64,000 nucleotides of DNA, taken from the IMG/VR virus record IMGVR_UViG_3300031758_000011, positions 62,001-126,000 of that record. The stretch is one strand, 5' to 3'. Positions 21,393 through 47,949 of this stretch are shown here, one piece after another. The first letter of the stretch is position 1; each line of letters opens with the position of its first letter. The notes below the pieces were generated by a model that saw nothing but the letters and a program-made list of their open reading frames with translations, was not told where the DNA came from and did not search any database. Made by a program: the position numbers and the translations under genes. This stretch comes from an uncultured virus (IMG/VR IMGVR_UViG_3300031758_000011) (lineage: Duplodnaviria; Heunggongvirae; Uroviricota; Caudoviricetes).

Positions 21393-21429
21393 CAGTTTTT
21401 TTTAAATATTTATATTAAAAACTTACAAC

Positions 21430-27851: not shown

Positions 27852-27896
27852 TTTGTTACGTAATTATCTTTTTGTACATTTGTAAAAAAAAGACAA

Positions 27897-32883: not shown

Positions 32884-32937
32884 ATACTTGCTTTTTTATA
32901 TAAAAATATGTAGTTTAGACAAAAAATAAAGATTAAC

Positions 32938-33960
32938 ATGAGTAAAAGAGATTATTACGAAGTATTAGGTGTTAAAAAAGGTGCTAGTGCTGATGAAATT
33001 AAAAAAGCGTATAGAAAACTAGCAAAAGAACATCACCCAGACAAAGGCGGTGACGAACAAAGATTCAAAGAGATATCAGAAGCATACGAAACATTGTCAG
33101 ATAGCAGCAAAAAGGCTAATTATGACCAATTTGGTCATTCTAGTGGTAGACAAGGTTTCGACCCATTCGGTGGATTTAGAAATCCGTTTGGTGGAAGAAA
33201 CCCATTTGGTGGGTTTGACCAACCTAGATATGGTTCAAATATTTCGTTAGTCGTTAAACTAACGTTAGAAGATATTTTTAATGGTGTTAATAAGAGCTAT
33301 AAATACACTAGAAAAGCCAAATGTGGTACGTGTGATGGTCATGGTGGTGAAAACACTGTAGATTGTCACGTTTGTGGTGGTTCTGGTCAAATGGTTCACG
33401 TTATGAAGACACCTATGGGTATAATTCAGCAAATGACTGCTTGTAATCATTGTTCTGGCACTGGTAAAACATACACAAAAGAATGTGGGAAGTGTAAAGG
33501 AAATGGTGTTGTTGATAAAGAAGAAATGGTTGAAGTTGAAGTTCCATCTGGTGTTATTGATGGTATGTCATTTGTTATGGAAGGTAAAGGTCATTGTGTT
33601 AAAAATGGTGAGGAAGGTGATTTAATAATAAAGATTTTAGAATTACCACATAAATTATTCACTAGAAACGGTAAAGATTTAAAATTAACGTTAAAAGTAC
33701 CTTTTCCAACAATGGTTTTAGGTGGTAAGATGGAAATACCTACAATTGAAGGTAACAACATTAGAATAACTATCCCAGAACATAGTGAAGTAGGACAAAC
33801 GTTAAGAATTCCATTCAAAGGTATTAAAGTGTATGGTGATGATGGTAGAGGTGATATTTTTGTTAACCTATCTGTTGACATACCTAAAGAGATTGATGAT
33901 GAAACAAAATCTGTTATCATTGATTTAAAAGAAAAATTACTTGCAACACAAAATTCTTAA
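32938..33960 (+). CDS. dnaJ: DnaJ chaperone
   Basis: J-domain with HPD, G/F region, four CxxCxGxG repeats. Confidence 0.97.
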
Positions 33961-35766: not shown

Positions 35767-36126
35767 GGGGTATTTAAGGTATTGACTGGGTATAGTCGTA
35801 GGTAGTAAGCATGTAGTGCTAGATTGGAAGCACTTTAAACTGTCTATTAGAACAAGAATTGACAACGATTTAATCGTATCAGAAAATTTCCTTGATGAAG
35901 CGACATTCGTTTCTAACGGAGAGCTTGCAGTAGCCTAATATTGCATATGGTAGTAACCTACCGATGGTGGTAATCCACTAAGATAATGGTAATCCATCTG
36001 GTGTGAAGCTTAAATTACACGGTAAAAAGAGGTAGCGAAATTTCGGATAGTTTGAAAACTATGTCCTAAACATGTAGAAAGCATTGAAGAATATTCAACA
36101 CACGGGTTCGATTCCCGTATACTCCA
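35767..36126 (+). ncRNA. ssrA: tmRNA
   Basis: GGGGTAT/ATACTCC-A acceptor with G3-U70, GAC in the D-loop-like segment, T-arm ACGGG-TTCGATT-CCCGT, internal tag ORF 35861..35938 ending ELAVA*. Confidence 0.93.
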
Positions 36127-36242
36127 CTCTTAACAGATTCATTCTCAAACAAATATCCGTGAGTAATGAAATTATTACCCTCAGTAAGTCGCTTTACTGG
36201 GGGTTTTTTATTTTTTAGCATATTTATATTAAAAACAAAACT

Positions 36243-37589: not shown

Positions 37590-37594
37590 CACAT

Positions 37595-37666
37595 TGCGGA
37601 GTAGAGCAGAGGTAGCTCGCAAGGCTCATAACCTTGAGGTCGGGGGTTCGATTCCTTCCTCCGCTA
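37595..37666 (+). tRNA. tRNA-Met(CAT), initiator-like
   Basis: Full cloverleaf; CAAGG-CTCATAA-CCTTG; 1:72 mismatch. Confidence 0.9.
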
Positions 37667-37753
37667 GATAACCGAAATTAACTCACTTGCACGTAGTGGT
37701 TATTGCACACCTAAATGGTGACTAAGAAGTTAATAAATTTTAAAAGTATTTGT

Positions 37754-39393: not shown

Positions 39394-39480
39394 AAAATAT
39401 AGGGATAAAATAAATATTATAAAAAAAAAAGCATAGACATTATCTATGCTTTTTTTTATTTTCATTAGATATTTATTTAT

Positions 39481-41100
39481 ATGAAACAGTTAATTAAAAA
39501 ATTATTTAAAGAATCTATAAAAAATATAAAAAATGATAAATTAATAATTGAAAGGCAAAAAATTGTTAATTTAAATAAATTATTTTTAATATTGGAAAAA
39601 GAAATCAAAGTTGGTGATAATTTAACTAAAAAATTAAATATCATTAACACACCTTTATCTAAAAAATTATTAGCGTTTTTAAATAGTGATAAAATAAAAG
39701 ATGACGCTAATGTCGAATATGTTGATTATGACAAAAAAAATGAAAAATTAATCACTTTAGGATATACTGATATTAATGGTAATACTAAAGAAAGATTGTT
39801 TAAGATTAATAAACTTCTCAATTATCTAGGTAGTAACATAAAAGATATTAAAGACTATGAAATAGAAGACCTTATTGGTCATCTTAAAACAGCTGATACA
39901 TCACAATTAAAAATGGTTGAAGGTGATGATATTCTAAAAGCATATCACTGTGGTAATTATGAAGATGGTGAAACTATGGGTTCATGTATGAGATTTAGTA
40001 GAGCGCAAGAATATCTTAAAATTTATACTGATAACCCTAATGAAGTTAAATGTCTTGTATTATTAAATCCAGAAACAAAAAAAGTTAGAGGTAGAGCGCT
40101 TATTTGGCATATGGATAACGACCAGTACTTTATGGATAGGATTTATACAACAAATAAAGAATTTAACACATTCTTCAACAATTATGCTGAAGAACATGGT
40201 TTTAGTAATAGAGCTAATTCGACAGTAACGCTTGAGAATGGTGGTGAATATGACACATACCCATTTATGGATACATTTGAGTATTATAATCCAGAAACTA
40301 GCACATTAGCGACTAGTGGAGAACAAGGTTGGATTCGATTACAAGACTCTCATGGTGGTCATTCAGAGGCTGGGGTTTATATTGAATATGGTGACCATGA
40401 AGGTGAGACTGTAGATGAAGATGAAGCGTTTTATTTATCATATAGAACACCAAATGGGTATGTAGAAGGTTACGCACACCAAGATGATATAGTATCAATA
40501 GATGGTGGTGTATACTTAATTGATGACTGTATTAAAACATATGACCATGAATGGATATATAAATATGATGATGATTCAGTACACGTAGAATTAACCTATG
40601 GTAGATACGAAGGCGAATATGCTAAATTAGATGATACCATAGAATTAGAACCAAATTACTATGGTGAAAATCAATATATAACAACTGATGACGACTATGT
40701 AACGTTAGATGACGACATTTATGAAATACCATATGCTTTTAGTGATGATACTGTAGAAACATATGATGAAAAAACAATATTAAAATCTGACGCTGTTGAA
40801 TTATACAGAGCACATTATGGTGAGGCAATGTTTGCACACCCAAATGACGCAACAAAAGTAAATACGAATGATTACGGTGACGTATGGGTGTTGGATACTG
40901 ATTTAGATGAGTTCGAAGAAAAGGAAAGAGAACGAGAAGAAAGGGATAAAAACATAGATTTAGAAAATTTGGCACAAAACCTTAAAAATGGTCTTATCAC
41001 ACAAAGCGAATACGATGAATTTGTTAGAAGAAAATCAAAACATAATGTTACTGAGAATAAAAAATTAATAAAAAAATTATTAAAGAATAAATTTGCATAA
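39481..41100 (+). CDS. Conserved phage protein (SCMR / GRALIW / DRIY / YPFMDT motifs), late class
   Basis: ORF track; IKKL(F/L)K motifs at both termini; TATTTAT upstream. Confidence 0.7.
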   Translation: MKQLIKKLFKESIKNIKNDKLIIERQKIVNLNKLFLILEKEIKVGDNLTKKLNIINTPLSKKLLAFLNSDKIKDDANVEYVDYDKKNEKLITLGYTDINGNTKERLFKINKLLNYLGSNIKDIKDYEIEDLIGHLKTADTSQLKMVEGDDILKAYHCGNYEDGETMGSCMRFSRAQEYLKIYTDNPNEVKCLVLLNPETKKVRGRALIWHMDNDQYFMDRIYTTNKEFNTFFNNYAEEHGFSNRANSTVTLENGGEYDTYPFMDTFEYYNPETSTLATSGEQGWIRLQDSHGGHSEAGVYIEYGDHEGETVDEDEAFYLSYRTPNGYVEGYAHQDDIVSIDGGVYLIDDCIKTYDHEWIYKYDDDSVHVELTYGRYEGEYAKLDDTIELEPNYYGENQYITTDDDYVTLDDDIYEIPYAFSDDTVETYDEKTILKSDAVELYRAHYGEAMFAHPNDATKVNTNDYGDVWVLDTDLDEFEEKEREREERDKNIDLENLAQNLKNGLITQSEYDEFVRRKSKHNVTENKKLIKKLLKNKFA

Positions 41101-41136
41101 TTAAAAAATCTTTTGTACATTTGTACTATAAGATTT

Positions 41137-41207
41137 GGTCTTATGATGTAACGGCAGCGTAACGGTCTCTAAAACCGATAGTGAGGGTTCGATTCCCTCT
41201 AAGACCA
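41137..41207 (+). tRNA. Amber suppressor tRNA (anticodon CTA)
   Basis: GGTCTTA/TAAGACC-A acceptor, CGGT-CTCTAAA-ACCG anticodon arm (CTA at 41169-41171), GAGGG-TTCGATT-CCCTC; own TACATTTG promoter at 41116. Confidence 0.9.
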
Positions 41208-41259
41208 CAAATAATGTTTACTTTGGCATTATTATTGATATATTTATTAAAAAAAAGTT

Positions 41260-41610
41260 ATGAAATAGGTTAACGAAAAATTAAGAGTTGTCACAAGACG
41301 CGACTTATCATTACCGACACAAGCGGTACAATCGGCACATGCTGCCATAGATTTCCAACACGCTCATCCTATAGAAGCGACAGAATGGCAATCAAAATCA
41401 AATTATCTGGCATTATTGACAGTCGCTAACGAAGAAGAATTAGTTAGACTATCAGAGAAAGCTGATTCTAGAGGAATCAAGTACACAATATTTAGAGAGC
41501 CAAACATCAACAATGAAATAACAGCAATAGCATTTGAACCTTCTGATTCTAGCAGAAGACTAACTAGTTCTTTTCCATTATTGGGAAGGGAGATAAATAA
41601 CAACGTTTAA
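41260..41610 (+). CDS. Peptidyl-tRNA hydrolase 2 (Pth2)-like protein with in-frame TAG at codon 3
   Basis: ATG-AAA-TAG-GTT... continues in frame as KLRVVTRRDLS...QAVQSAHAA...YLALL.V.NEEEL...FREP....ITAIAFEP; the ORF track caught only the 3' half. Confidence 0.8.
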
Positions 41611-41621
41611 ATTTTAATACT

Positions 41622-41651
41622 ATGATGTAGATATACAGAGCTCCACCTTAA
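41622..41651 (+). CDS. Mini-ORF MM(TAG)IYRAPP*, candidate arrest peptide
   Basis: ATG ATG TAG ATA TAC AGA GCT CCA CCT TAA, 11 nt after the pth2 stop. Confidence 0.55.
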
Positions 41652-41729
41652 ATTTATTTTAACATAGACAATAACATAGACACAGTGTCTATGTATAAAA
41701 ATAATAACTAAAAATAAAATAAATTTAAT

Positions 41730-42149
41730 ATGAAAACAGTAGAGCAAAAACAATTAGAAGTTAAAAATTATTTAACTAAAACAGAATTACACTTATTCAA
41801 AAATAAAAAAAGTGAATTATTCAAAATAATACCATTTGAAGTTGATGGTGAATTATATGTTACTAAAATAACTATAAAAAGTGATAACACTGTTGAATCA
41901 AAAGTAAGAAAAGTATTTAGAAATGAATATTATGATTTAAAAAGTGTTTGGAAATACATATTCTTTCCTTCATCAATTTATGAAAAAGAAAATGTTATTG
42001 CAATAAAACACTTTAAAACTATAAATAAATTTTTTGGTCTTTTACATGGTAATTTGACGATAGATGATGTTAAAAATGTTGAATATATGAATAAAATTAT
42101 TGACGCTTATAAATTAATTTTAAATTTTGTTGACAAAACGAATAATTAA
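41730..42149 (+). CDS. Hypothetical protein
   Basis: ORF track. Confidence 0.6.
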   Translation: MKTVEQKQLEVKNYLTKTELHLFKNKKSELFKIIPFEVDGELYVTKITIKSDNTVESKVRKVFRNEYYDLKSVWKYIFFPSSIYEKENVIAIKHFKTINKFFGLLHGNLTIDDVKNVEYMNKIIDAYKLILNFVDKTNN

Positions 42150-42189
42150 TAGTATATTAGTAAAAATAATTTAAATTTAAACATAAAAT

Positions 42190-42606
42190 ATGGTAATTAC
42201 AGAAAACAGTACTGTAAAAGTACATTACACTGGTAGATTAGATGATAACACAGTTTTTGATTCTTCTGCTGACAGAGAACCTCTATCTGCTGAATTAGGT
42301 AAAGGTATGTTAATCCCTGGATTTGAACAAGGATTACACGGAATGAAAGTAGGTGATAAAAAAACTATCACAATTCCAGCTGAACAAGCTTATGGTCCAA
42401 TTAGACCAGAAATGACGCAAGAAATCGAAAGAACATTTGTTCCAGAAGGTGTTCAAGTTGGTCAACAATTGGTTTCAGAAGGGCCAAAAGGGCAAATGGT
42501 TGTAACAGTTGCTGAAGTTAAAGAAGAAACTGTTGTGTTAGATGCTAATCACCCTTTAGCTGGTAAAGACTTAATCTTCGATTTAGAAGTAGTTGAAATA
42601 GCTTAA
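42190..42606 (+). CDS. FKBP-type peptidyl-prolyl isomerase (SlyD/SlpA-like)
   Basis: VHYTG.L.D..VFDSS, IPGFE, AYG, DANHPLAGKDL.F. Confidence 0.95.
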   Translation: MVITENSTVKVHYTGRLDDNTVFDSSADREPLSAELGKGMLIPGFEQGLHGMKVGDKKTITIPAEQAYGPIRPEMTQEIERTFVPEGVQVGQQLVSEGPKGQMVVTVAEVKEETVVLDANHPLAGKDLIFDLEVVEIA

Positions 42607-42687
42607 TTAAAAAAAATAAAAATATAAAACCCAGATTTACGTCTGGGTTTTTTTGTTTTATTAAAATTTTATTATTACATTTGTACT

Positions 42688-43818
42688 ATGGAAAAGAGAA
42701 TTATATTTGATATGCCAATACCAAAAGACATTTTACAAATAAAAGATGTTTTTAAGCAAAATGGTTTTAACCTATATGTTGTAGGTGGTGCAGTGCGTGA
42801 TGCGTTGTTAGGTAAAACACCTAAAGATTACGATTTGGCAACCGATGCTATCCCAGACCAAGTGGAAGACATAATGGCTAAAGGTGGTTTTAGAACTTTA
42901 CCAACTGGTAAAGCATTTGGTGTTATCAACGTCTTTACTGATATGGGTGAATACGAAATCGCAACTTTTAGGGAAGACTTATCTAGCGGTAGAAGACCAG
43001 ATGGTGTTAGTTTTACAGATATAGTAGGTGACGTTAAAAGACGTGACTTAACAATCAACGCATTATTTTACGATATAGACACGTCAGAAGTTGTTGATTT
43101 GGTTGATGGTATAGAAGACCTTAAAAACAGTGTTGTAAGGACTGTAGGTGCAGCTGAAGATAGATTTGGTGAAGATAGATTACGTATATTAAGAGCAATT
43201 AGATTTGCTGGTAGATTTGGTAGTGAATTAGACCCATCAGTTGACGCTGCATTGCAAAAAGATGCTAGTTTGGAAGGTATATCTGGTGAAAGAATCAGAG
43301 ATGAGTTTTTGAAAGGTATCAAATCAGCAAAATCTGTAAAATCGTTTTTAAAAATGATTGACAAATACAATTTATTTGATTGGGTTTTTAAAGATGTTAA
43401 TGTTAATAAAAATTTCATTGAAGATAATGATATAATTATTGTTTTAGCAATGTTGTTAAAGAATAATAAAGTTGATTTATTAACAAAACAATTGAACAAA
43501 TTAAAATACTCAATTGATGAAATAAGAGCTATTACATTTTTGATTAGTCTATTGAATTTGTCGATTGATACAGCTGTAACGCTTAAAAAAGCTGAAAAGA
43601 CATCTGGTGTAACAGCAGAACAAATAACTAGATTTGCTCAATTAAGTGGTATTGATGTAAAGATTATAGATACATTTTTATTATTTAAATTAACGGTTAA
43701 TGGTTCAGACCTAATGACAAAGATGGGGTTAAAACAAGGACCAGAATTAGGTAAAGAAATACAAAGACTAGAAACTGATAATTTTAAAAAACTTTATCTA
43801 GATATATTTATTTTTTGA
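42688..43818 (+). CDS. cca: tRNA nucleotidyltransferase (CCA-adding enzyme, class II)
   Basis: VGGAVRD, KDYDLAT, EIATFR, RRDLTINA, EDRLRILRAIRF; the window's tRNA genes lack encoded CCA. Confidence 0.88.
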   Translation: MEKRIIFDMPIPKDILQIKDVFKQNGFNLYVVGGAVRDALLGKTPKDYDLATDAIPDQVEDIMAKGGFRTLPTGKAFGVINVFTDMGEYEIATFREDLSSGRRPDGVSFTDIVGDVKRRDLTINALFYDIDTSEVVDLVDGIEDLKNSVVRTVGAAEDRFGEDRLRILRAIRFAGRFGSELDPSVDAALQKDASLEGISGERIRDEFLKGIKSAKSVKSFLKMIDKYNLFDWVFKDVNVNKNFIEDNDIIIVLAMLLKNNKVDLLTKQLNKLKYSIDEIRAITFLISLLNLSIDTAVTLKKAEKTSGVTAEQITRFAQLSGIDVKIIDTFLLFKLTVNGSDLMTKMGLKQGPELGKEIQRLETDNFKKLYLDIFIF

Positions 43819-43853
43819 TATTATAATATTATATTTATTTTTTATTAATTAAT

Positions 43854-44249
43854 ATGGCAAAATTTATAGCGATTTTTAATGATACCATTAGTGATGTAGA
43901 AGTGAATGGTTTTTCTGTAATGACAGATAAAGAAGTTGATGAATATGAAGAATTAGCTTACAGCATTACATGGCCATTCACTTACAAAATTGGTGATTAC
44001 GAATTAGAGTTTTCAGATGGTGAAGATTTATTATCTAAAATAGAATTTAAAGAACTAACGTTTGACGATTCCAAATCTTTAAAAAAAGTCTTTAACAATA
44101 AGTTTGGATTTTTCATTGATTTAGATTATTTAGAAACAATCGTTGACGAAGAAGATGATTTAGATTCTGATGATGAATTTGATGACGATGGTTATGATGG
44201 GTATGGTACTAATTTTTACGATGACGATGAGTACGATGAAAACTATTGA
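43854..44249 (+). CDS. Acidic hypothetical protein
   Basis: ORF track. Confidence 0.6.
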   Translation: MAKFIAIFNDTISDVEVNGFSVMTDKEVDEYEELAYSITWPFTYKIGDYELEFSDGEDLLSKIEFKELTFDDSKSLKKVFNNKFGFFIDLDYLETIVDEEDDLDSDDEFDDDGYDGYGTNFYDDDEYDENY

Positions 44250-44718
44250 CGTTAAATATTTTAAACAGACAAGCGGTAACACATGTGGTCCAGCATGTAT
44301 TTACATGGCTTGGTATCATTCAGTAAACAAAGACAATATGATTCAATTCGATATTGATATGAAATATAGTATTGAAGACATTGCAAAGTTATGTGGTACT
44401 GATTGGGTTGTAGGCACACCGCCAGAAAGATTAGCAAACGGTTTAAACATGTTAAATTTAAAATATGTTGAATACATATCATCACCACACCCTTTTGATT
44501 TATTAAAAACAATTATTGATAACGGAAACTTACCAATAATTAGAACGATAACGCAAGGTATTCCACATTGGATAATAGTTAATGGTTATGATGATAACTT
44601 TTTTCACATTAAAGACCCATGGTTAGGTGAAATTAAATATAATCAATCTGATTTAGATTATATATGGGAAGTTAGACAGTATCAATTTTTTGAAATTTTA
44701 ATGAATGAAAATAATTAA
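44236..44718 (+). CDS. C39-like cysteine peptidase
   Basis: Q....CGPAC, HWIIV, DP triad; start refined. Confidence 0.8.
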   Translation: MKTIDVKYFKQTSGNTCGPACIYMAWYHSVNKDNMIQFDIDMKYSIEDIAKLCGTDWVVGTPPERLANGLNMLNLKYVEYISSPHPFDLLKTIIDNGNLPIIRTITQGIPHWIIVNGYDDNFFHIKDPWLGEIKYNQSDLDYIWEVRQYQFFEILMNENN

Positions 44719-46782: not shown

Positions 46783-46855
46783 GGTGGTTATGGTGTAACG
46801 GTTAACATGATAGATTGTGATTCTATTGATACCAGTTCGATTCTGGTTAATCACC
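46783..46855 (+). tRNA. tRNA-His(GTG)
   Basis: G-1, C73, ATAGA-TTGTGAT-TCTAT. Confidence 0.9.
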
Positions 46856-46895
46856 CTTGAACTGTAAGTTCTTTGACATGTTGGTAAATTAATAC

Positions 46896-46966
46896 ACAAG
46901 TATAGTTCAGTGGTAGAATAGCGGTCTCCAAAACCGTTGACGGGAGTTCGAGTCTCTCTACTTGTG
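46896..46966 (+). tRNA. tRNA-Trp(CCA)
   Basis: Cloverleaf; GCGGT-CTCCAAA-ACCGT. Confidence 0.92.
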
Positions 46967-46998
46967 CAATTAACTGAATATTAGTTAATTATAAATAC

Positions 46999-47085
46999 GG
47001 AGAGGTAAGCAGAGTTGGCCTAACTGCAACCGCCTTGAAAGCGGTAGGCCCTAGAGGTGTGTGGGTTCGAGTCCCACCCTCTCCG
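46999..47085 (+). tRNA. tRNA-Ser(TGA)
   Basis: ACCGC-CTTGAAA-GCGGT, long variable arm, G73. Confidence 0.92.
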
Positions 47086-47155
47086 CTAAAATTTAATTTT
47101 ATGAAAAAAGAATTTGATATGTTGTAAGGTCTGCTATTCACAGACTCACAACATT

Positions 47156-47344
47156 ATGAGTAAAAACGTAAACAGAGCAAAACTGAACAAAGCACAAAAT
47201 GGTAGACAATACCGAATCATGTTAATCAATGATTTCTACCCAATTTATTGGGATGAAGGTATTCGTTTCTATGGAAACAAAATGAGTTATCAAGTTAGAA
47301 TGTATAAAACTTGGAAACACTACCGAAAAACACAGTGGAAGTAA
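47156..47344 (+). CDS. Small basic protein within the tRNA array
   Basis: Start refined; ends YKTWKHYRKTQWK. Confidence 0.6.
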   Translation: MSKNVNRAKLNKAQNGRQYRIMLINDFYPIYWDEGIRFYGNKMSYQVRMYKTWKHYRKTQWK

Positions 47345-47355
47345 TTCCACAATTT

Positions 47356-47427
47356 TGTCTAATGGTGAAATGGTTATCACGCTGCTCTGATACGGCAGTA
47401 TTTCCAGTTCGAGTCTGGGTTAGACAA
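47356..47427 (+). tRNA. tRNA-Ile(GAT)
   Basis: Cloverleaf; CTGCT-CTGATAC-GGCAG. Confidence 0.85.
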
Positions 47428-47433
47428 CAAGAT

Positions 47434-47510
47434 GCAGATGTATCCCCTCAAGCTTATATCTTGTAGAAAGGGTAGTTGGTCACATGTGAGTTCGAATCTC
47501 ACCTTCTGTA
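47434..47510 (+). tRNA. Non-canonical tRNA-like gene, anticodon TAT (Ile)
   Basis: Acceptor and T-arm present; CAAG-CTTATAT-CTTG hairpin; no D-arm at the normal place. Confidence 0.55.
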
Positions 47511-47520
47511 CAAAATATAT

Positions 47521-47594
47521 TCTCCTTTAGCTCAGTAGGTTAGAGCAACGCACTGTTAATGCGTGGGTCCTAGGTTCGAATCCTAGAGGGAGAG
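47521..47594 (+). tRNA. tRNA-Asn(GTT)
   Basis: Cloverleaf; ACGCA-CTGTTAA-TGCGT. Confidence 0.93.
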
Positions 47595-47604
47595 CAACAA
47601 ATAT

Positions 47605-47706
47605 TCACCCATAGCTCAGTGGTAGAGCAAACGGCTAGGTATGATAAGTAAGTTCATACAAGGAGTGTTAACCGTTAGGTCCTAGGTTCGAATCCTAGTG
47701 GGTGAG
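47605..47706 (+). tRNA. tRNA-Asn(GTT) with 30-nt insertion in the anticodon loop
   Basis: AACGG-CT-[47637..47666]-GTTAA-CCGTT; all other arms perfect. Confidence 0.8.
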
Positions 47707-47712
47707 CAAAAT

Positions 47713-47782
47713 GCCGACACTTAGTGGAAAAGGACCGTCCCTCATATGGATGGTTAAGTGAGTTCGAACCTCACAGTCGGTA
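47713..47782 (+). tRNA. Atypical tRNA(CAT), probably Ile2 (or Met)
   Basis: CGTCC-CTCATAT-GGATG, normal T-arm, shortened D region. Confidence 0.65.
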
Positions 47783-47788
47783 CAACAT

Positions 47789-47861
47789 GCACTTATCGTT
47801 CAACTGGATAGGACAATCGCCTACGAAGCGATAAATCGGAGTTCGAATCTCTGTAGGTGTA
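47789..47861 (+). tRNA. tRNA-Arg(ACG)
   Basis: Cloverleaf; ATCGC-CTACGAA-GCGAT. Confidence 0.93.
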
Positions 47862-47870
47862 CAACAATCT

Positions 47871-47943
47871 GCCCCTATCGTTCAACTGGATAGGACATGG
47901 CCCTTCTAAGGCCAGTATCGGAGTTCGAATCTCTGTGGGGGTA
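47871..47943 (+). tRNA. tRNA-Arg(TCT)
   Basis: Cloverleaf; TGGCC-CTTCTAA-GGCCA. Confidence 0.93.
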
Positions 47944-47949
47944 CAAAAT

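What the first reader, a model, noticed from the sequence alone, without database searches (positions are those of the whole stretch)
41622..41700. Second codon-3 amber: mini-ORF MM*IYRAPP-stop with a ribosome-arrest motif
Seen: 11 nt after the pth2 stop lies ATG ATG TAG ATA TAC AGA GCT CCA CCT TAA, again with TAG as the third codon. A repeated AACATAGACA and the hairpin ACATAGACA-CAG-TGTCTATGT follow, before the next gene. Established: RAPP/RAGP is the arrest motif of ApdA/ApdP/SecM-type peptides, and Pro before a stop codon impairs termination. Inference: only amber readthrough produces a stalling peptide, which could regulate the downstream gene or generate the peptidyl-tRNA substrate for the adjacent Pth2. 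GC-rich RAPP codons in this position seem unlikely by chance in such AT-rich DNA.
Basis: partly seen in the sequence, partly recalled or inferred. Interest (0 to 1): 0.85.

Follow-up and report, generated by a model that had tools for sequence, protein, structure and literature searches.

The report
Amber-gated ribosome-arrest leader peptide in phage
A nine-codon reading frame behind the phage's pth2 gene can only be read past its third codon by the phage's own amber-suppressor tRNA, ends in a known ribosome-stalling motif, and overlaps an RNA helix that hides the start of the next gene, so it looks like a natural switch that turns a gene on only when the suppressor tRNA works.

Summary
The mini-ORF ATG ATG TAG ATA TAC AGA GCT CCA CCT TAA lies at 41622-41651. 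It is 11 nt after pth2 and 414 nt after a tRNA(CUA). Equivalent mini-ORFs occur in 43 of 46 related viral contigs and give 30 distinct DNA versions. All share M-x(1-4)-TAG-[I/V]-...-[R/K]-x-P-[P/T/N]. Arg and Pro use synonymous codons, which points to selection on the peptide downstream of the TAG. The sequence from the stop codon onward (41648-41661) is a perfect 14-nt complement of 41715-41728, directly before the next gene's ATG. This helix recurs with compensatory changes in 24 of 24 loci tested. It tracks the R-x-P motif rather than the stop codon. The best reading is as follows. Without suppression, ribosomes stop at TAG and the helix hides the start region of the next gene. With suppression, ribosomes reach the RAPP-type arrest site, cover the 5' arm and free that start region. 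Stalling, suppression and the direction of control are inferred, not shown. The device works like SecM- or Apd-type arrest peptides, but its input is amber suppression, which six library searches did not find described in nature.

The parts
41116..41123 (+). TACATTTG promoter-like -7 box upstream of the tRNA; likely start of the operon
   Evidence: The sequence is. The same TAcaTTTG motif sits upstream of at least 8 other gene starts in this genome. That it matches the Bacteroidota consensus TAnnTTTG is recalled, not tested.
41137..41208 (+). tRNA with anticodon CUA (amber suppressor)
   Evidence: ARAGORN finds it. Rfam tRNA scores 60.1 bits, E 5e-12. A tRNA(CUA) lies within about 1 kb of pth2 in 41 of 46 related loci. 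One more, in L022, was seen by eye.
41260..41610 (+). pth2 (peptidyl-tRNA hydrolase 2 family) with in-frame TAG at codon 3 (41266-41268)
   Evidence: Pfam PTH2 E 1.9e-9, with the match starting at residue 7. No ATG, GTG or TTG occurs for 49 codons after the TAG, which is unique among the genome's + strand frames. An early in-frame TAG is present in 33 of 33 homologues inspected.
41622..41651 (+). mini-ORF MM-TAG-IYRAPP-stop: TAG at 41628-41630, RAPP at 41637-41648, stop at 41649-41651
   Evidence: Searches show the sequence. Homologous mini-ORFs with 30 distinct DNA sequences show synonymous Arg and Pro codon variation.
41648..41661 (+). 5' arm of the masking helix (TTAAATTTATTTTA); it overlaps the stop codon
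   Evidence: It is paired in the MFE structure. Ungapped 14-bp helix. On the alignment, 90.6% of cells are paired and 5 of 14 pairs show changes on both sides.
41662..41670 (+). direct repeat 1 (ACATAGACA); it can pair with the inverted copy and stack on the masking helix
   Evidence: DR1:IR is 82.5% paired on the alignment.
41674..41682 (+). direct repeat 2 (ACATAGACA); 5' half of the local hairpin
   Evidence: DR2:IR is 81.5% paired, and 6 of 9 pairs show changes on both sides.
41686..41694 (+). inverted repeat (TGTCTATGT); 3' half of the hairpin
41715..41728 (+). 3' arm of the masking helix (TAAAATAAATTTAA); it ends 2 nt before the ATG of the next gene
41730..42149 (+). downstream gene (139 aa, unknown function); the presumed regulated gene
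   Evidence: ORF. No Pfam or PHROG match. AF2 model pLDDT 82.6, with no clear fold match. Homologues follow the mini-ORF in 13 other loci.
42190..42606 (+). FKBP-type peptidyl-prolyl isomerase gene; last gene of the presumed operon
   Evidence: Pfam FKBP_C E 3e-23. It is followed by a terminator-like hairpin at 42626-42651.

Best explanation
The mini-ORF is a translated regulatory leader peptide. Its output depends on the phage's own amber-suppressor tRNA.

Without a working tRNA(CUA), ribosomes that start at 41622 or 41625 terminate at TAG (41628-41630). They never reach the 3' part of the ORF. The helix 41648-41661 : 41715-41728, extended by DR1:IR, then keeps the start region of the next gene (ATG 41730) paired, and that gene stays off.

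With the suppressor, ribosomes read through and arrive at R-A-P-P. There they pause or arrest as RAPP-type peptides do, with the first Pro codon (41643-41645) in the P site. The ribosome then covers about 11 of the 14 nt of the 5' arm. The inverted repeat falls back on DR2, the 3' arm is freed, and the 139-aa gene is translated.

pth2 is gated directly by its own early TAG. Together the two gates make this operon's proteins conditional on suppressor activity.

Shown: the conservation of the ORF, its TAG and its motif; the link to tRNA(CUA); and the covarying helix and its geometry. Inferred: suppression, arrest, the on/off direction and the purpose.
For: 1. Conservation at the peptide level beyond the TAG. 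There are 30 distinct DNA versions and 26 distinct peptides. ATG and TAG are invariant and always in frame, although 1-4 codons separate them. Arg at position -2 is encoded by AGA 13, AGG 4, CGA 3 and CGC 1. The P-site Pro is encoded by CCA 14, CCG 10, CCT 5 and CCC 1.

2. Linkage to the suppressor tRNA.
- A tRNA(CUA) is found by ARAGORN in 41 of 46 pth2 loci.
- A scan of 2.9 million viral contigs for a 30-nt degenerate mini-ORF pattern gave 10 hits. All 10 have a tRNA(CUA) within 1 kb: the five new loci, and the five on contigs already held. Pth2 was found by tblastn in 4 of the 5 new loci; the fifth is cut by its contig end. The other 5 hits lie on pth2 contigs already held.
- The same pattern gave 0 hits in 596 Gb of prokaryote genomes.

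3. Motif.
- Among the 21 versions with Arg at -2, the middle residue is A, G, P or S in 19.
- That is the set reported as compatible with RxPP arrest (PMC12992588 section 7).
- RAPT and RGPT occur among natural ApcA-cluster uORFs (PMC10987492 Methods).
- 'I-R' precedes the motif in many versions, as in ApdP (QSKCI-RAPP).

4. Helix.
- The MFE structure pairs the stop codon and spacer with the sequence just before the next ATG.
- Duplex energy beats shuffles (at most 4 of 300 as good) in 22 of 24 non-redundant loci.
- An uninterrupted helix of 10-15 bp is present in 24 of 24 loci tested. The position 3 nt after the start of the stop codon shows A-U 5, G-C 11, G-U 2, U-A 2 and C-G 2.
- On an unfitted MAFFT alignment of 14 loci, 86.8% of cells are paired, against 79.7 +/- 1.2 in shuffles (0 of 500 as high) and 29-48% when partners are slid. 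Eleven of 23 pairs change on both sides.

5. Geometry.
- The 5' arm starts 0-11 nt after the first base of the presumed P-site codon.
- Where the ORF continues beyond R-x-P (L041, L042), the significant 5' arm follows the motif, not the stop.
- In L027 the best duplex also starts after the motif, but it is not significant (22 of 300 shuffles as good).

6. Constrained folding. Mean unpaired probability of positions -14 to +5 of the next gene is 0.49 with no ribosome, 0.52 with a ribosome at TAG and 0.76 with a ribosome at the arrest site. In the window the values are 0.27, 0.25 and 0.88.

7. TAG context. The read-through TAGs are followed by A in 27 and G in 3 of 30 versions. The genome's 9 gene-ending TAGs are followed by T 6, A 2 and C 1.
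Against: - There is no direct evidence of translation, suppression or stalling. The RNA contigs laid on the region do not cover the mini-ORF.
- Nine of 30 versions lack Arg at -2 (K 4, N 2, I, V, S). Arg was irreplaceable in ApcA, ApdA and ApdP, and earlier in SecM. Those versions may only pause at Pro-Pro, or may work differently.
- In 15 of 30 versions the A-site residue is T, N or V rather than P.
- The nascent chain is only 8 residues at the presumed arrest. The known RAPP peptides cited here span roughly 100-130 or more residues, and residues upstream of the motif modulate arrest.
- In 13 of 24 loci the 3' arm ends 11-14 nt before the ATG, so the start codon itself is not paired. A gain above 0.3 in start-region accessibility was seen in only 11 of 24 loci.
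- The helix is almost pure A-U, with energies of -8 to -20 kcal/mol.
- L022 has a mini-ORF but no helix. L019 has no mini-ORF in the 3 kb examined.
- The role of the three repeats is unexplained, and they are absent in some lineages (L020, L023, L035, L042).
- The patterns used for counting were defined after seeing the data.
Confidence: 0.6

Rival explanations
1. The leader is translated and suppressor-dependent, but it acts on transcription or RNA processing rather than on translation initiation. In this reading the ribosome's position decides which of DR1 or DR2 pairs with the inverted repeat. That would control a terminator, a Rho entry site or an RNase cleavage site between pth2 and the next gene.
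For: The arrangement of two direct repeats and one inverted copy allows two alternative hairpins. Both are supported about equally (81.5% and 82.5% paired). The repeats covary between phages. The synthetic UAG-in-leader switch reviewed in PMC6412442 acts on transcription.
Against: No U-run follows the hairpin on the + strand, and the scan found no + strand terminator there. Lineages without the repeats keep the mini-ORF and the long-range helix (L020, L023, L035, L042). The long-range helix always ends at or near the next start codon.
Confidence: 0.12
2. No true arrest takes place. Any ribosome that translates through to the stop codon melts the 5' arm while terminating, and this is enough to couple translation of the next gene to read-through. 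The Pro-rich end only slows termination.
For: The stop codon is itself part of the helix in 17 of 24 loci. Nine of 30 versions lack the Arg held to be essential for RAPP-type arrest.
Against: There is strong peptide-level conservation of [R/K]-x-P, with Pro two codons before the stop even when the last residue is T or N. In the long versions the arm follows the motif and not the stop.
Confidence: 0.15
3. This is a minigene or substrate generator. ATG-x-TAG would act like a lambda bar minigene, or the stalled short peptidyl-tRNA would drop off, producing peptidyl-tRNA that the adjacent Pth2 handles.
For: The ORF lies next to pth2. In the unsuppressed state it is a two-codon ORF. Short peptidyl-tRNAs are prone to drop off (recalled, not tested).
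Against: It does not explain selection on the peptide after the TAG, nor the covarying helix to the next gene. In many loci the mini-ORF is separated from pth2 by another gene and a tRNA.
Confidence: 0.04
4. This is a non-coding conserved element, for example an operator or protein-binding RNA, and the small reading frame is accidental. Alternatively, the 9-residue peptide itself acts in trans.
For: The GGACA/TAGACA repeats look like binding sites. A fourth copy sits just before the ATG in L002-L004 and L015.
Against: The frame is kept despite length changes on both sides of the TAG. Synonymous Arg (AGR/CGN) and Pro codon variation is seen. The pattern gave 0 hits on minus strands and 0.1 per shuffled replicate.
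Confidence: 0.06

Closest known systems
RAPP-like arrest peptides: ApdA, ApdP, ApcA, SecM and the 'RQH family' (PMC7897499 seen in listing only; PMC10987492, PMC10951233 and PMC12992588 read in part)
   Same: The core is R-[A/G/P/S]-P-x near the C-terminus of a small upstream ORF. An Ile often precedes the Arg. An RNA helix involving the start region of the next gene would be opened by a ribosome held at the motif. SecM is described this way in PMC10951233.
   Different: The peptide has 9 codons instead of roughly 100-200 residues, and it has no signal or membrane segment. The downstream genes are not sec or yidC; they belong to at least 4 unrelated families of unknown function. The signal is whether an in-frame TAG is read, not a pulling force. 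It is found in phages. Nine of 30 versions lack the Arg.
Short drug- or metabolite-dependent leader peptides (ErmCL/ErmBL, TnaC); recalled, not read here
   Same: A very short leader ORF holds a ribosome, and that ribosome remodels a downstream hairpin to switch on the next gene.
   Different: No small-molecule ligand is implied. Access to the stalling site is gated by a stop codon and a tRNA.
tRNA-sensing attenuation leaders (trpL, hisL and others); recalled, and mentioned in PMC6412442
   Same: Codons in a short leader report the availability of one particular tRNA and set expression of downstream genes.
   Different: The reporting codon is a stop codon, and the sensed tRNA is a phage suppressor. 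Lack of the tRNA gives termination, not stalling. No terminator with a U-run is present.
Engineered UAG-in-leader-peptide switches (PMC6412442 section 6 and Figure 8 legend)
   Same: An amber codon placed in a leader peptide makes downstream expression depend on an amber-suppressor tRNA.
   Different: Those switches are man-made and act on transcription through a rut site. The element here is natural and most likely acts on translation initiation.
Stop-codon-recoded (code 15) phages and their 'code change modules' (bioRxiv 10.1101/2021.08.26.457843, passages)
   Same: A phage-encoded suppressor tRNA is expressed from standard-code genes and is proposed to gate the translation of other genes.
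   Different: Here the genome otherwise uses the standard code. TAG ends 9 of 107 genes. Only pth2 needs read-through among frames of 70 codons or more. The gate is one early codon plus a leader peptide, not many in-frame TAGs in late genes. That preprint contains no occurrence of 'hydrolase' or 'leader'.

Membership tests
RAPP-like ribosome arrest peptides (ApdA/ApdP/ApcA/SecM, RQH family) | R-(A/G)-(P/G)-(P/G)-type core near the C-terminus | tested here: met
   The window encodes R-A-P-P directly before the stop. Across the 30 versions, 21 have R at -2, and 19 of those have A, G, P or S at -1.
RAPP-like ribosome arrest peptides (ApdA/ApdP/ApcA/SecM, RQH family) | Arg of the motif is indispensable | tested here: inconclusive
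   Nine of 30 natural versions have K, N, I, V or S at that position. Three of those nine have R one place later (xRPP).
RAPP-like ribosome arrest peptides (ApdA/ApdP/ApcA/SecM, RQH family) | Upstream ORF whose stalled ribosome opens a helix that hides the start region of the next gene | tested here: met
   The helix is predicted and covaries. A ribosome at the motif would cover the 5' arm. That it opens the helix in vivo is inferred.
RAPP-like ribosome arrest peptides (ApdA/ApdP/ApcA/SecM, RQH family) | N-terminal signal or membrane segment, and a downstream Sec/YidC gene (monitoring substrate) | tested here: not met
   The peptide has 9 codons. The downstream proteins have no Pfam or PHROG family.
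RAPP-like ribosome arrest peptides (ApdA/ApdP/ApcA/SecM, RQH family) | Demonstrated translation arrest with the third motif residue in the P site | not testable with these tools
   This needs toeprinting or in vitro translation.
tRNA-sensing attenuation leaders | Regulatory codon(s) in a short leader ORF read by the sensed tRNA | tested here: met
   TAG is invariant in all 30 versions, and tRNA(CUA) is linked.
tRNA-sensing attenuation leaders | Terminator/antiterminator alternative with a U-run | tested here: not met
   No + strand terminator-like site lies between 41651 and 41730.
lambda bar-type minigenes | Two- or three-codon ORF whose effect needs nothing beyond its stop | tested here: not met
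   ATG ATG TAG would qualify by form. However, the frame after the TAG is under peptide-level selection.
Code 15 (TAG-recoded) phages | Many genes with in-frame TAG; low coding density in code 11 | tested here: not met
   Among the + strand frames of 70 codons or more that follow a TAG, only pth2 lacks a canonical start codon within 10 codons after the TAG. TAG ends 9 of 107 genes.

The most novel reading that the evidence does not exclude
In these standard-code freshwater phages the amber-suppressor tRNA may not be a tool for changing the genetic code. It may instead be a dedicated trans-acting translational activator with a tiny regulon. pth2 would be gated directly by an early TAG. A second gene would be gated indirectly through an amber-gated arrest leader that converts the ratio of suppressor to release factor 1 into unmasking of a start site. 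Such a circuit would report that phage tRNAs have been processed, CCA-tailed and charged. It could also be the kind of stage from which full TAG reassignment evolved.
Probability: 0.35. Interest if true: 0.9.

Novelty: new variant of a known kind. Interest (0 to 1): 0.85.

Why it matters
Suppressor tRNAs are common in phages, and some of those phages otherwise use the standard code. Why they carry them is an open question. This element gives a concrete and testable client for such a tRNA. It is a natural counterpart of the amber-codon leader switches that synthetic biologists built. It combines a stop-codon gate with a RAPP-type arrest motif in only nine codons. If confirmed, three things follow:
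- Arrest peptides would extend to phages, to an 8-residue nascent chain, and to a new kind of input (stop-codon read-through).
- It would offer a compact part for orthogonal control of translation.
- It would show, together with the equally conserved early TAG in pth2, that a phage can make a small set of genes conditional on its own tRNA.

Tried and rejected
- **Phage genome search.** blastn of 39400-43900 against 50,697 phage records gave no match.
- **Earlier scan notes.** None exist for this genome.
- **Repeat as a genome-wide motif.** The ACATAGACA repeat is not enriched: 20 matches against 22.9 expected.
- **Function of the downstream 139-aa protein.**
  - No Pfam or PHROG match.
  - A profile search of PDB sequences gave a best E of 0.36.
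  - Foldseek against PDB found nothing at E 0.001 or better.
  - VIA-align gave a best Z of 5.2 to an integrase catalytic core, which is too weak to use.
- **Downstream genes in other lineages.** They belong to at least 4 families, none with a significant Pfam or PHROG match.
- **Which amino acid the suppressor carries.** This could not be settled.
  - The anticodon arm equals that of the phage's tRNA-Trp except for the anticodon C-to-T change, but the rest of the tRNA differs.
  - The 26 distinct suppressor tRNAs resemble no single isoacceptor; best identities are about 0.7 to Met, Trp, His, Arg and others.
- **Expression evidence.**
  - Sixteen runs, all of DNA kind and from 11 studies of lake, river, freshwater or 'fungus' metagenomes, hold from 0.48 to all of the stretch's sampled words.
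  - Contigs of the four runs filed as RNA-Seq (two of them probably DNA) cover only parts of the tRNA, pth2, the 139-aa gene and the FKBP gene, and not the mini-ORF. This is uninformative.
- **Rfam.** Only the tRNA is found. No known family covers 41611-41729.
- **First accessibility window.** Positions -14 to +5 captured the effect in only 11 of 24 loci, because in the others the 3' arm lies at -27 to -12.
- **Codon after the TAG as an alternative start.** Rejected, because GTT, GTA, CTT, ACA and AAA occur there.
- **First MAFFT alignment (A1).** It was out of register in the 3' arm, so a second alignment (A3) was made of 14 loci trimmed at the arm ends.
Full report
**What is there.** The window is bases 62001-126000 of a single 126,523-bp contig with 30% G+C. 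Nearly all long frames are on the + strand, and the content is phage-like. At 41137-41208 lies a tRNA with anticodon CUA (ARAGORN; Rfam tRNA 60.1 bits).

Fifty-one nt further on, a PTH2-family frame starts with ATG AAA TAG (41260-41610; Pfam E 1.9e-9, with the match starting at residue 7). After that TAG there is no ATG, GTG or TTG for 49 codons. Every other + strand frame of 70 or more codons that follows a TAG has a start codon within 0-9 codons.

Eleven nt after the pth2 stop comes the finding itself: ATG ATG TAG ATA TAC AGA GCT CCA CCT TAA (41622-41651). It is followed by AACATAGACA twice, then the inverted copy, and then a 139-codon gene at 41730.

**Conservation.**
- Searching viral contigs with Pth2 returned 46 loci at 48-99% protein identity.
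- In 33 of 33 loci inspected, the pth2 frame begins M-x(1-6)-TAG. Examples are MK*, MKN*, MTH*, MKQH*, MKDT* and MKKPFYY*. The other 13 are duplicates or truncated and were not inspected.
- ARAGORN finds a tRNA(CUA) within the 3-kb flanks of 41 of 46 loci. In L022 a tRNA(CUA)-like sequence that ARAGORN missed is visible directly upstream of pth2.
- A mini-ORF of the same design lies 10-1100 nt downstream of pth2 in 43 of 46 loci. Of the other three, L019 shows none in 3 kb, L046 ends just after pth2, and L044 has only a dubious hit.
- Together with five further loci there are 30 distinct DNA versions and 26 distinct peptides. Examples are MM*IYRAPP, MM*ILRAPP, MK*IIRAPP, MR*IARAPT, MK*IIRGPT, MT*VIRGPT, MM*IARPPN, MK*IRRKPP, MN*IKAPP, MKH*INRPP, MKKHN*VRPP, MK*IKIRGPTYVVFN and MKH*IHIRSPVSRF....

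**Is the part after the TAG translated?** Four observations point to selection on the encoded peptide in the frame set by ATG and TAG.
- ATG and TAG are invariant and stay in frame, although 1, 2 or 4 codons separate them.
- The distance from TAG to the Pro varies from 2 to 7 codons.
- Arg at -2 uses AGA 13, AGG 4, CGA 3 and CGC 1. The Pro uses all four codons (CCA 14, CCG 10, CCT 5, CCC 1). Ala uses GCA, GCT and GCC, and Gly uses GGT and GGA.
- The post-hoc peptide pattern gives 0 hits on the minus strands of the 46 loci (257,691 nt). In the whole genome it finds only the mini-ORF itself. It gave 2 hits in 20 shuffled replicates.

The codon after TAG cannot be a hidden start. It is ATT, ATA, ATC, GTA or ACA in the 30 counted mini-ORF versions, AAA in L022's mini-ORF, and also GTT or CTT in pth2. 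Together with the linked tRNA(CUA), read-through is the economical explanation.

The base after these TAGs is A in 27 and G in 3 of 30 versions. The nine gene-ending TAGs of this genome are followed by T 6, A 2 and C 1. That a purine at this place favours suppression is recalled from the E. coli literature, not tested.

**An independent check.** A 30-nt degenerate pattern for the RA/RG versions was scanned through 2.9 million viral contigs without reference to pth2.
- It gave 10 hits, 5 of them on contigs not seen before.
- All 10 have a tRNA(CUA) within 1 kb (for the five new loci, for the five already held).
- pth2 was found by tblastn in 4 of the 5 new loci. The fifth is cut by a contig end 851 nt upstream. 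The other 5 hits lie on pth2 contigs already held.
- The same pattern gave 0 hits in 596 Gb of prokaryote genomes.

**The helix.** Folding 41605-41745 pairs the sequence from the last base of CCT through the stop codon and ten more bases (41648-41661, TTAAATTTATTTTA) with TAAAATAAATTTAA (41715-41728), which ends 2 nt before the ATG. DR1 pairs with the inverted repeat and stacks on top. The z-score is -2.5, and 1 of 200 shuffles folds as well.

The same complementarity recurs with different sequences in other phages. Examples are gttttg/caaaac in L009, gattatttctta/taagaaataatc in L035 and ctttaaattttat/ataaaatttaaag after a TGA stop in L018.

The supporting counts are:
- Duplex energy between the 30 nt from the presumed P-site codon and positions -45 to +8 of the next gene beats shuffles (at most 4 of 300 as good) in 22 of 24 non-redundant loci. 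L027 gives 22 of 300, and L022 has no helix.
- An uninterrupted helix of 10-15 bp is present in 24 of 24 loci of a partly overlapping set. The fourth base from the start of the stop codon shows five pair types: A-U 5, G-C 11, G-U 2, U-A 2 and C-G 2.
- On a MAFFT alignment of 14 loci of similar layout, chosen from those 24 and trimmed at the arm ends but not fitted to the structure, 86.8% of cells pair. Shuffles give 79.7 +/- 1.2% (0 of 500 as high), and sliding the partners gives 29-48%. Eleven of 23 pairs change on both sides, against 5.5 expected.
- The tool's own caveats apply: the sequences are related, and the structure was derived from them.

**Geometry.**
- The 5' arm begins 0-11 nt after the first base of the Pro codon that would occupy the P site.
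- A bacterial ribosome shields roughly 15 nt downstream of the first P-site base (recalled from toeprinting practice).
- A ribosome held with 41643-41645 in the P site would therefore cover 41648-41658, which is 11 of the 14 arm bases.
- A ribosome terminating at TAG would reach only about 41640.
- In two of the three lineages where the ORF runs on for 3-13 sense codons after the residue that follows R-x-P (L041, L042), a significant 5' arm follows the motif, not the stop. In L027 the best duplex also starts after the motif but is not significant (22 of 300).
- In all short versions the Pro sits two codons before the stop, whether the last residue is P, T or N.
- This fits arrest at R-x-P with the next codon in the A site, as shown for the RAPP-like family (PMC10987492 passage; PMC12992588 section 7). 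It fits better than slow termination after a C-terminal Pro.
- Constrained folding gives mean unpaired probabilities for -14 to +5 of the next gene of 0.49 with no ribosome, 0.52 with a ribosome at TAG and 0.76 with a ribosome at the motif. For the window the values are 0.27, 0.25 and 0.88.
- The gain exceeds 0.3 in only 11 of 24 loci. In the rest the 3' arm lies 11-14 nt or more upstream of the ATG.

**Comparison with known arrest peptides.** I read the abstract and sections 7 and 10 of PMC12992588, and passages of PMC10987492 and PMC10951233.
- In ApcA, ApdA and ApdP the R-A-P core is highly specific. Arg cannot be replaced. Ala-to-Gly is fully permissive or better, and Ser, Asp or Pro at that position are partly permissive. 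RxPP with x = G, A, S or P was selected from random libraries.
- The motif lists for natural uORFs include RAPT, RGPT and RAP-stop.
- The five residues before RAPP tune the arrest, and the minimal RxPP motif was reported as sufficient.
- The phage family matches this closely. Of the 21 versions with Arg at -2, 19 have A, G, P or S next, and an Ile often precedes the Arg as in ApdP.
- It departs in four ways: nine versions without that Arg, a non-Pro A-site residue in half of the versions, only 8 nascent residues, and no signal peptide or Sec/YidC gene.
- It therefore works like these peptides but is not a member of the monitoring-substrate families.

**What is regulated.**
- In the window the operon appears to run from a TACATTTG promoter-like box (41116-41123) through the tRNA, pth2, the mini-ORF, the 139-aa gene and an FKBP isomerase gene to a terminator-like hairpin at 42626-42651. 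A tRNA nucleotidyltransferase gene follows.
- The gene directly behind the mini-ORF belongs to at least four unrelated families in different lineages, all without known function.
- Further downstream lie a CCA-adding enzyme, TROVE/Ro60-like proteins, or a TonB-dependent receptor with PnuC.
- The leader-plus-helix cassette is therefore modular. Its biological purpose is not established.
- A timer or checkpoint that waits for functional phage tRNA is my inference.

**The repeats.** DR1, DR2 and the inverted copy covary between phages (ACATAGACA, ACTTGGACA, ACTAGGACA). DR2:IR is 81.5% paired and DR1:IR is 82.5% paired, so the two are supported about equally. This allows a two-state picture: in the masked state DR1:IR stacks on the masking helix, and in the open state DR2:IR forms a local hairpin. 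Some lineages lack the repeats altogether, so they are accessory and remain unexplained.

**Novelty.** Six searches of the held library turned up no description of a natural amber-codon-gated leader or arrest peptide, or of an early conserved TAG in a phage pth2.
- The stop-codon-recoding preprint has no occurrence of 'hydrolase' or 'leader'.
- Engineered leader peptides carrying UAG are reviewed in PMC6412442.
- Rfam has no family over the element.
- Subscription-only papers and supplements were not seen.

**Verdict.** The element is real, conserved and very probably functional. I put about 0.85 on it being a translated, suppressor-dependent cis-regulatory leader, and 0.6 on the specific mechanism of arrest-driven unmasking of the next gene's start. 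It is a new variant of arrest and leader-peptide control with a new kind of input.

Noticed in passing
41260-41268 and loci L001-L045: The pth2 gene starts ATG-x(1-6)-TAG in 33 of 33 homologues inspected, at 48-99% protein identity. It nearly always lies beside a tRNA(CUA). This conserved early amber gate in a peptidyl-tRNA hydrolase deserves a report of its own.
   Followed up: partly
35767-36127: ARAGORN calls a tmRNA gene with tag peptide VSENFLDEATFVSNGELAVA. If real, this is a phage-borne tmRNA close to the suppressor tRNA and pth2.
   Followed up: no
46784-47944 and 37594-37667: A cluster of seven tRNA genes (His, Trp, Ser, Ile, Asn, Arg, Arg) plus a separate tRNA-Met. The anticodon arm of tRNA-Trp equals that of the suppressor except for one anticodon base.
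   Followed up: partly
whole genome, e.g. 27870-27896, 42670-42687, 21400-21429, 36215-36242: Two recurrent promoter-like motifs precede gene starts. One is TAcaTTTG. The other is ATATTTATAT(T)AAAAA, usually just after a G-rich hairpin with a T-run. They may mark two temporal classes.
   Followed up: no
32908-32940: ATG TAG lies in frame 10 codons upstream of the ATG of the 340-aa gene at 32938-33960. It is probably chance, because a normal start follows closely.
   Followed up: no
42688-43818, 42190-42606, 44170-44718: Genes for a CCA-adding enzyme, an FKBP-type isomerase and a C39-like peptidase lie next to the module. The CCA-adding enzyme is conserved downstream in the closest relatives (L058, L060-L062, L066).
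   Followed up: partly
L072, L074, L076, L079; L081, L088, L090, L100: Related phage contigs carry a TonB-dependent receptor and a PnuC-type NMN transporter, or a TROVE/Ro60-like protein, a few genes after the mini-ORF.
   Followed up: no
L002:3440-3465, L003, L004, L015:3795-3810: A fourth copy of the GGACA/TAGACA motif lies between the 3' arm of the helix and the ATG of the downstream gene.
   Followed up: no
L016, L055, L056: These loci carry two tRNA(CUA) genes each. In L016 and L055 one of them lies 21-64 nt in front of the mini-ORF; in L056 the nearer copy is 177 nt upstream.
   Followed up: no
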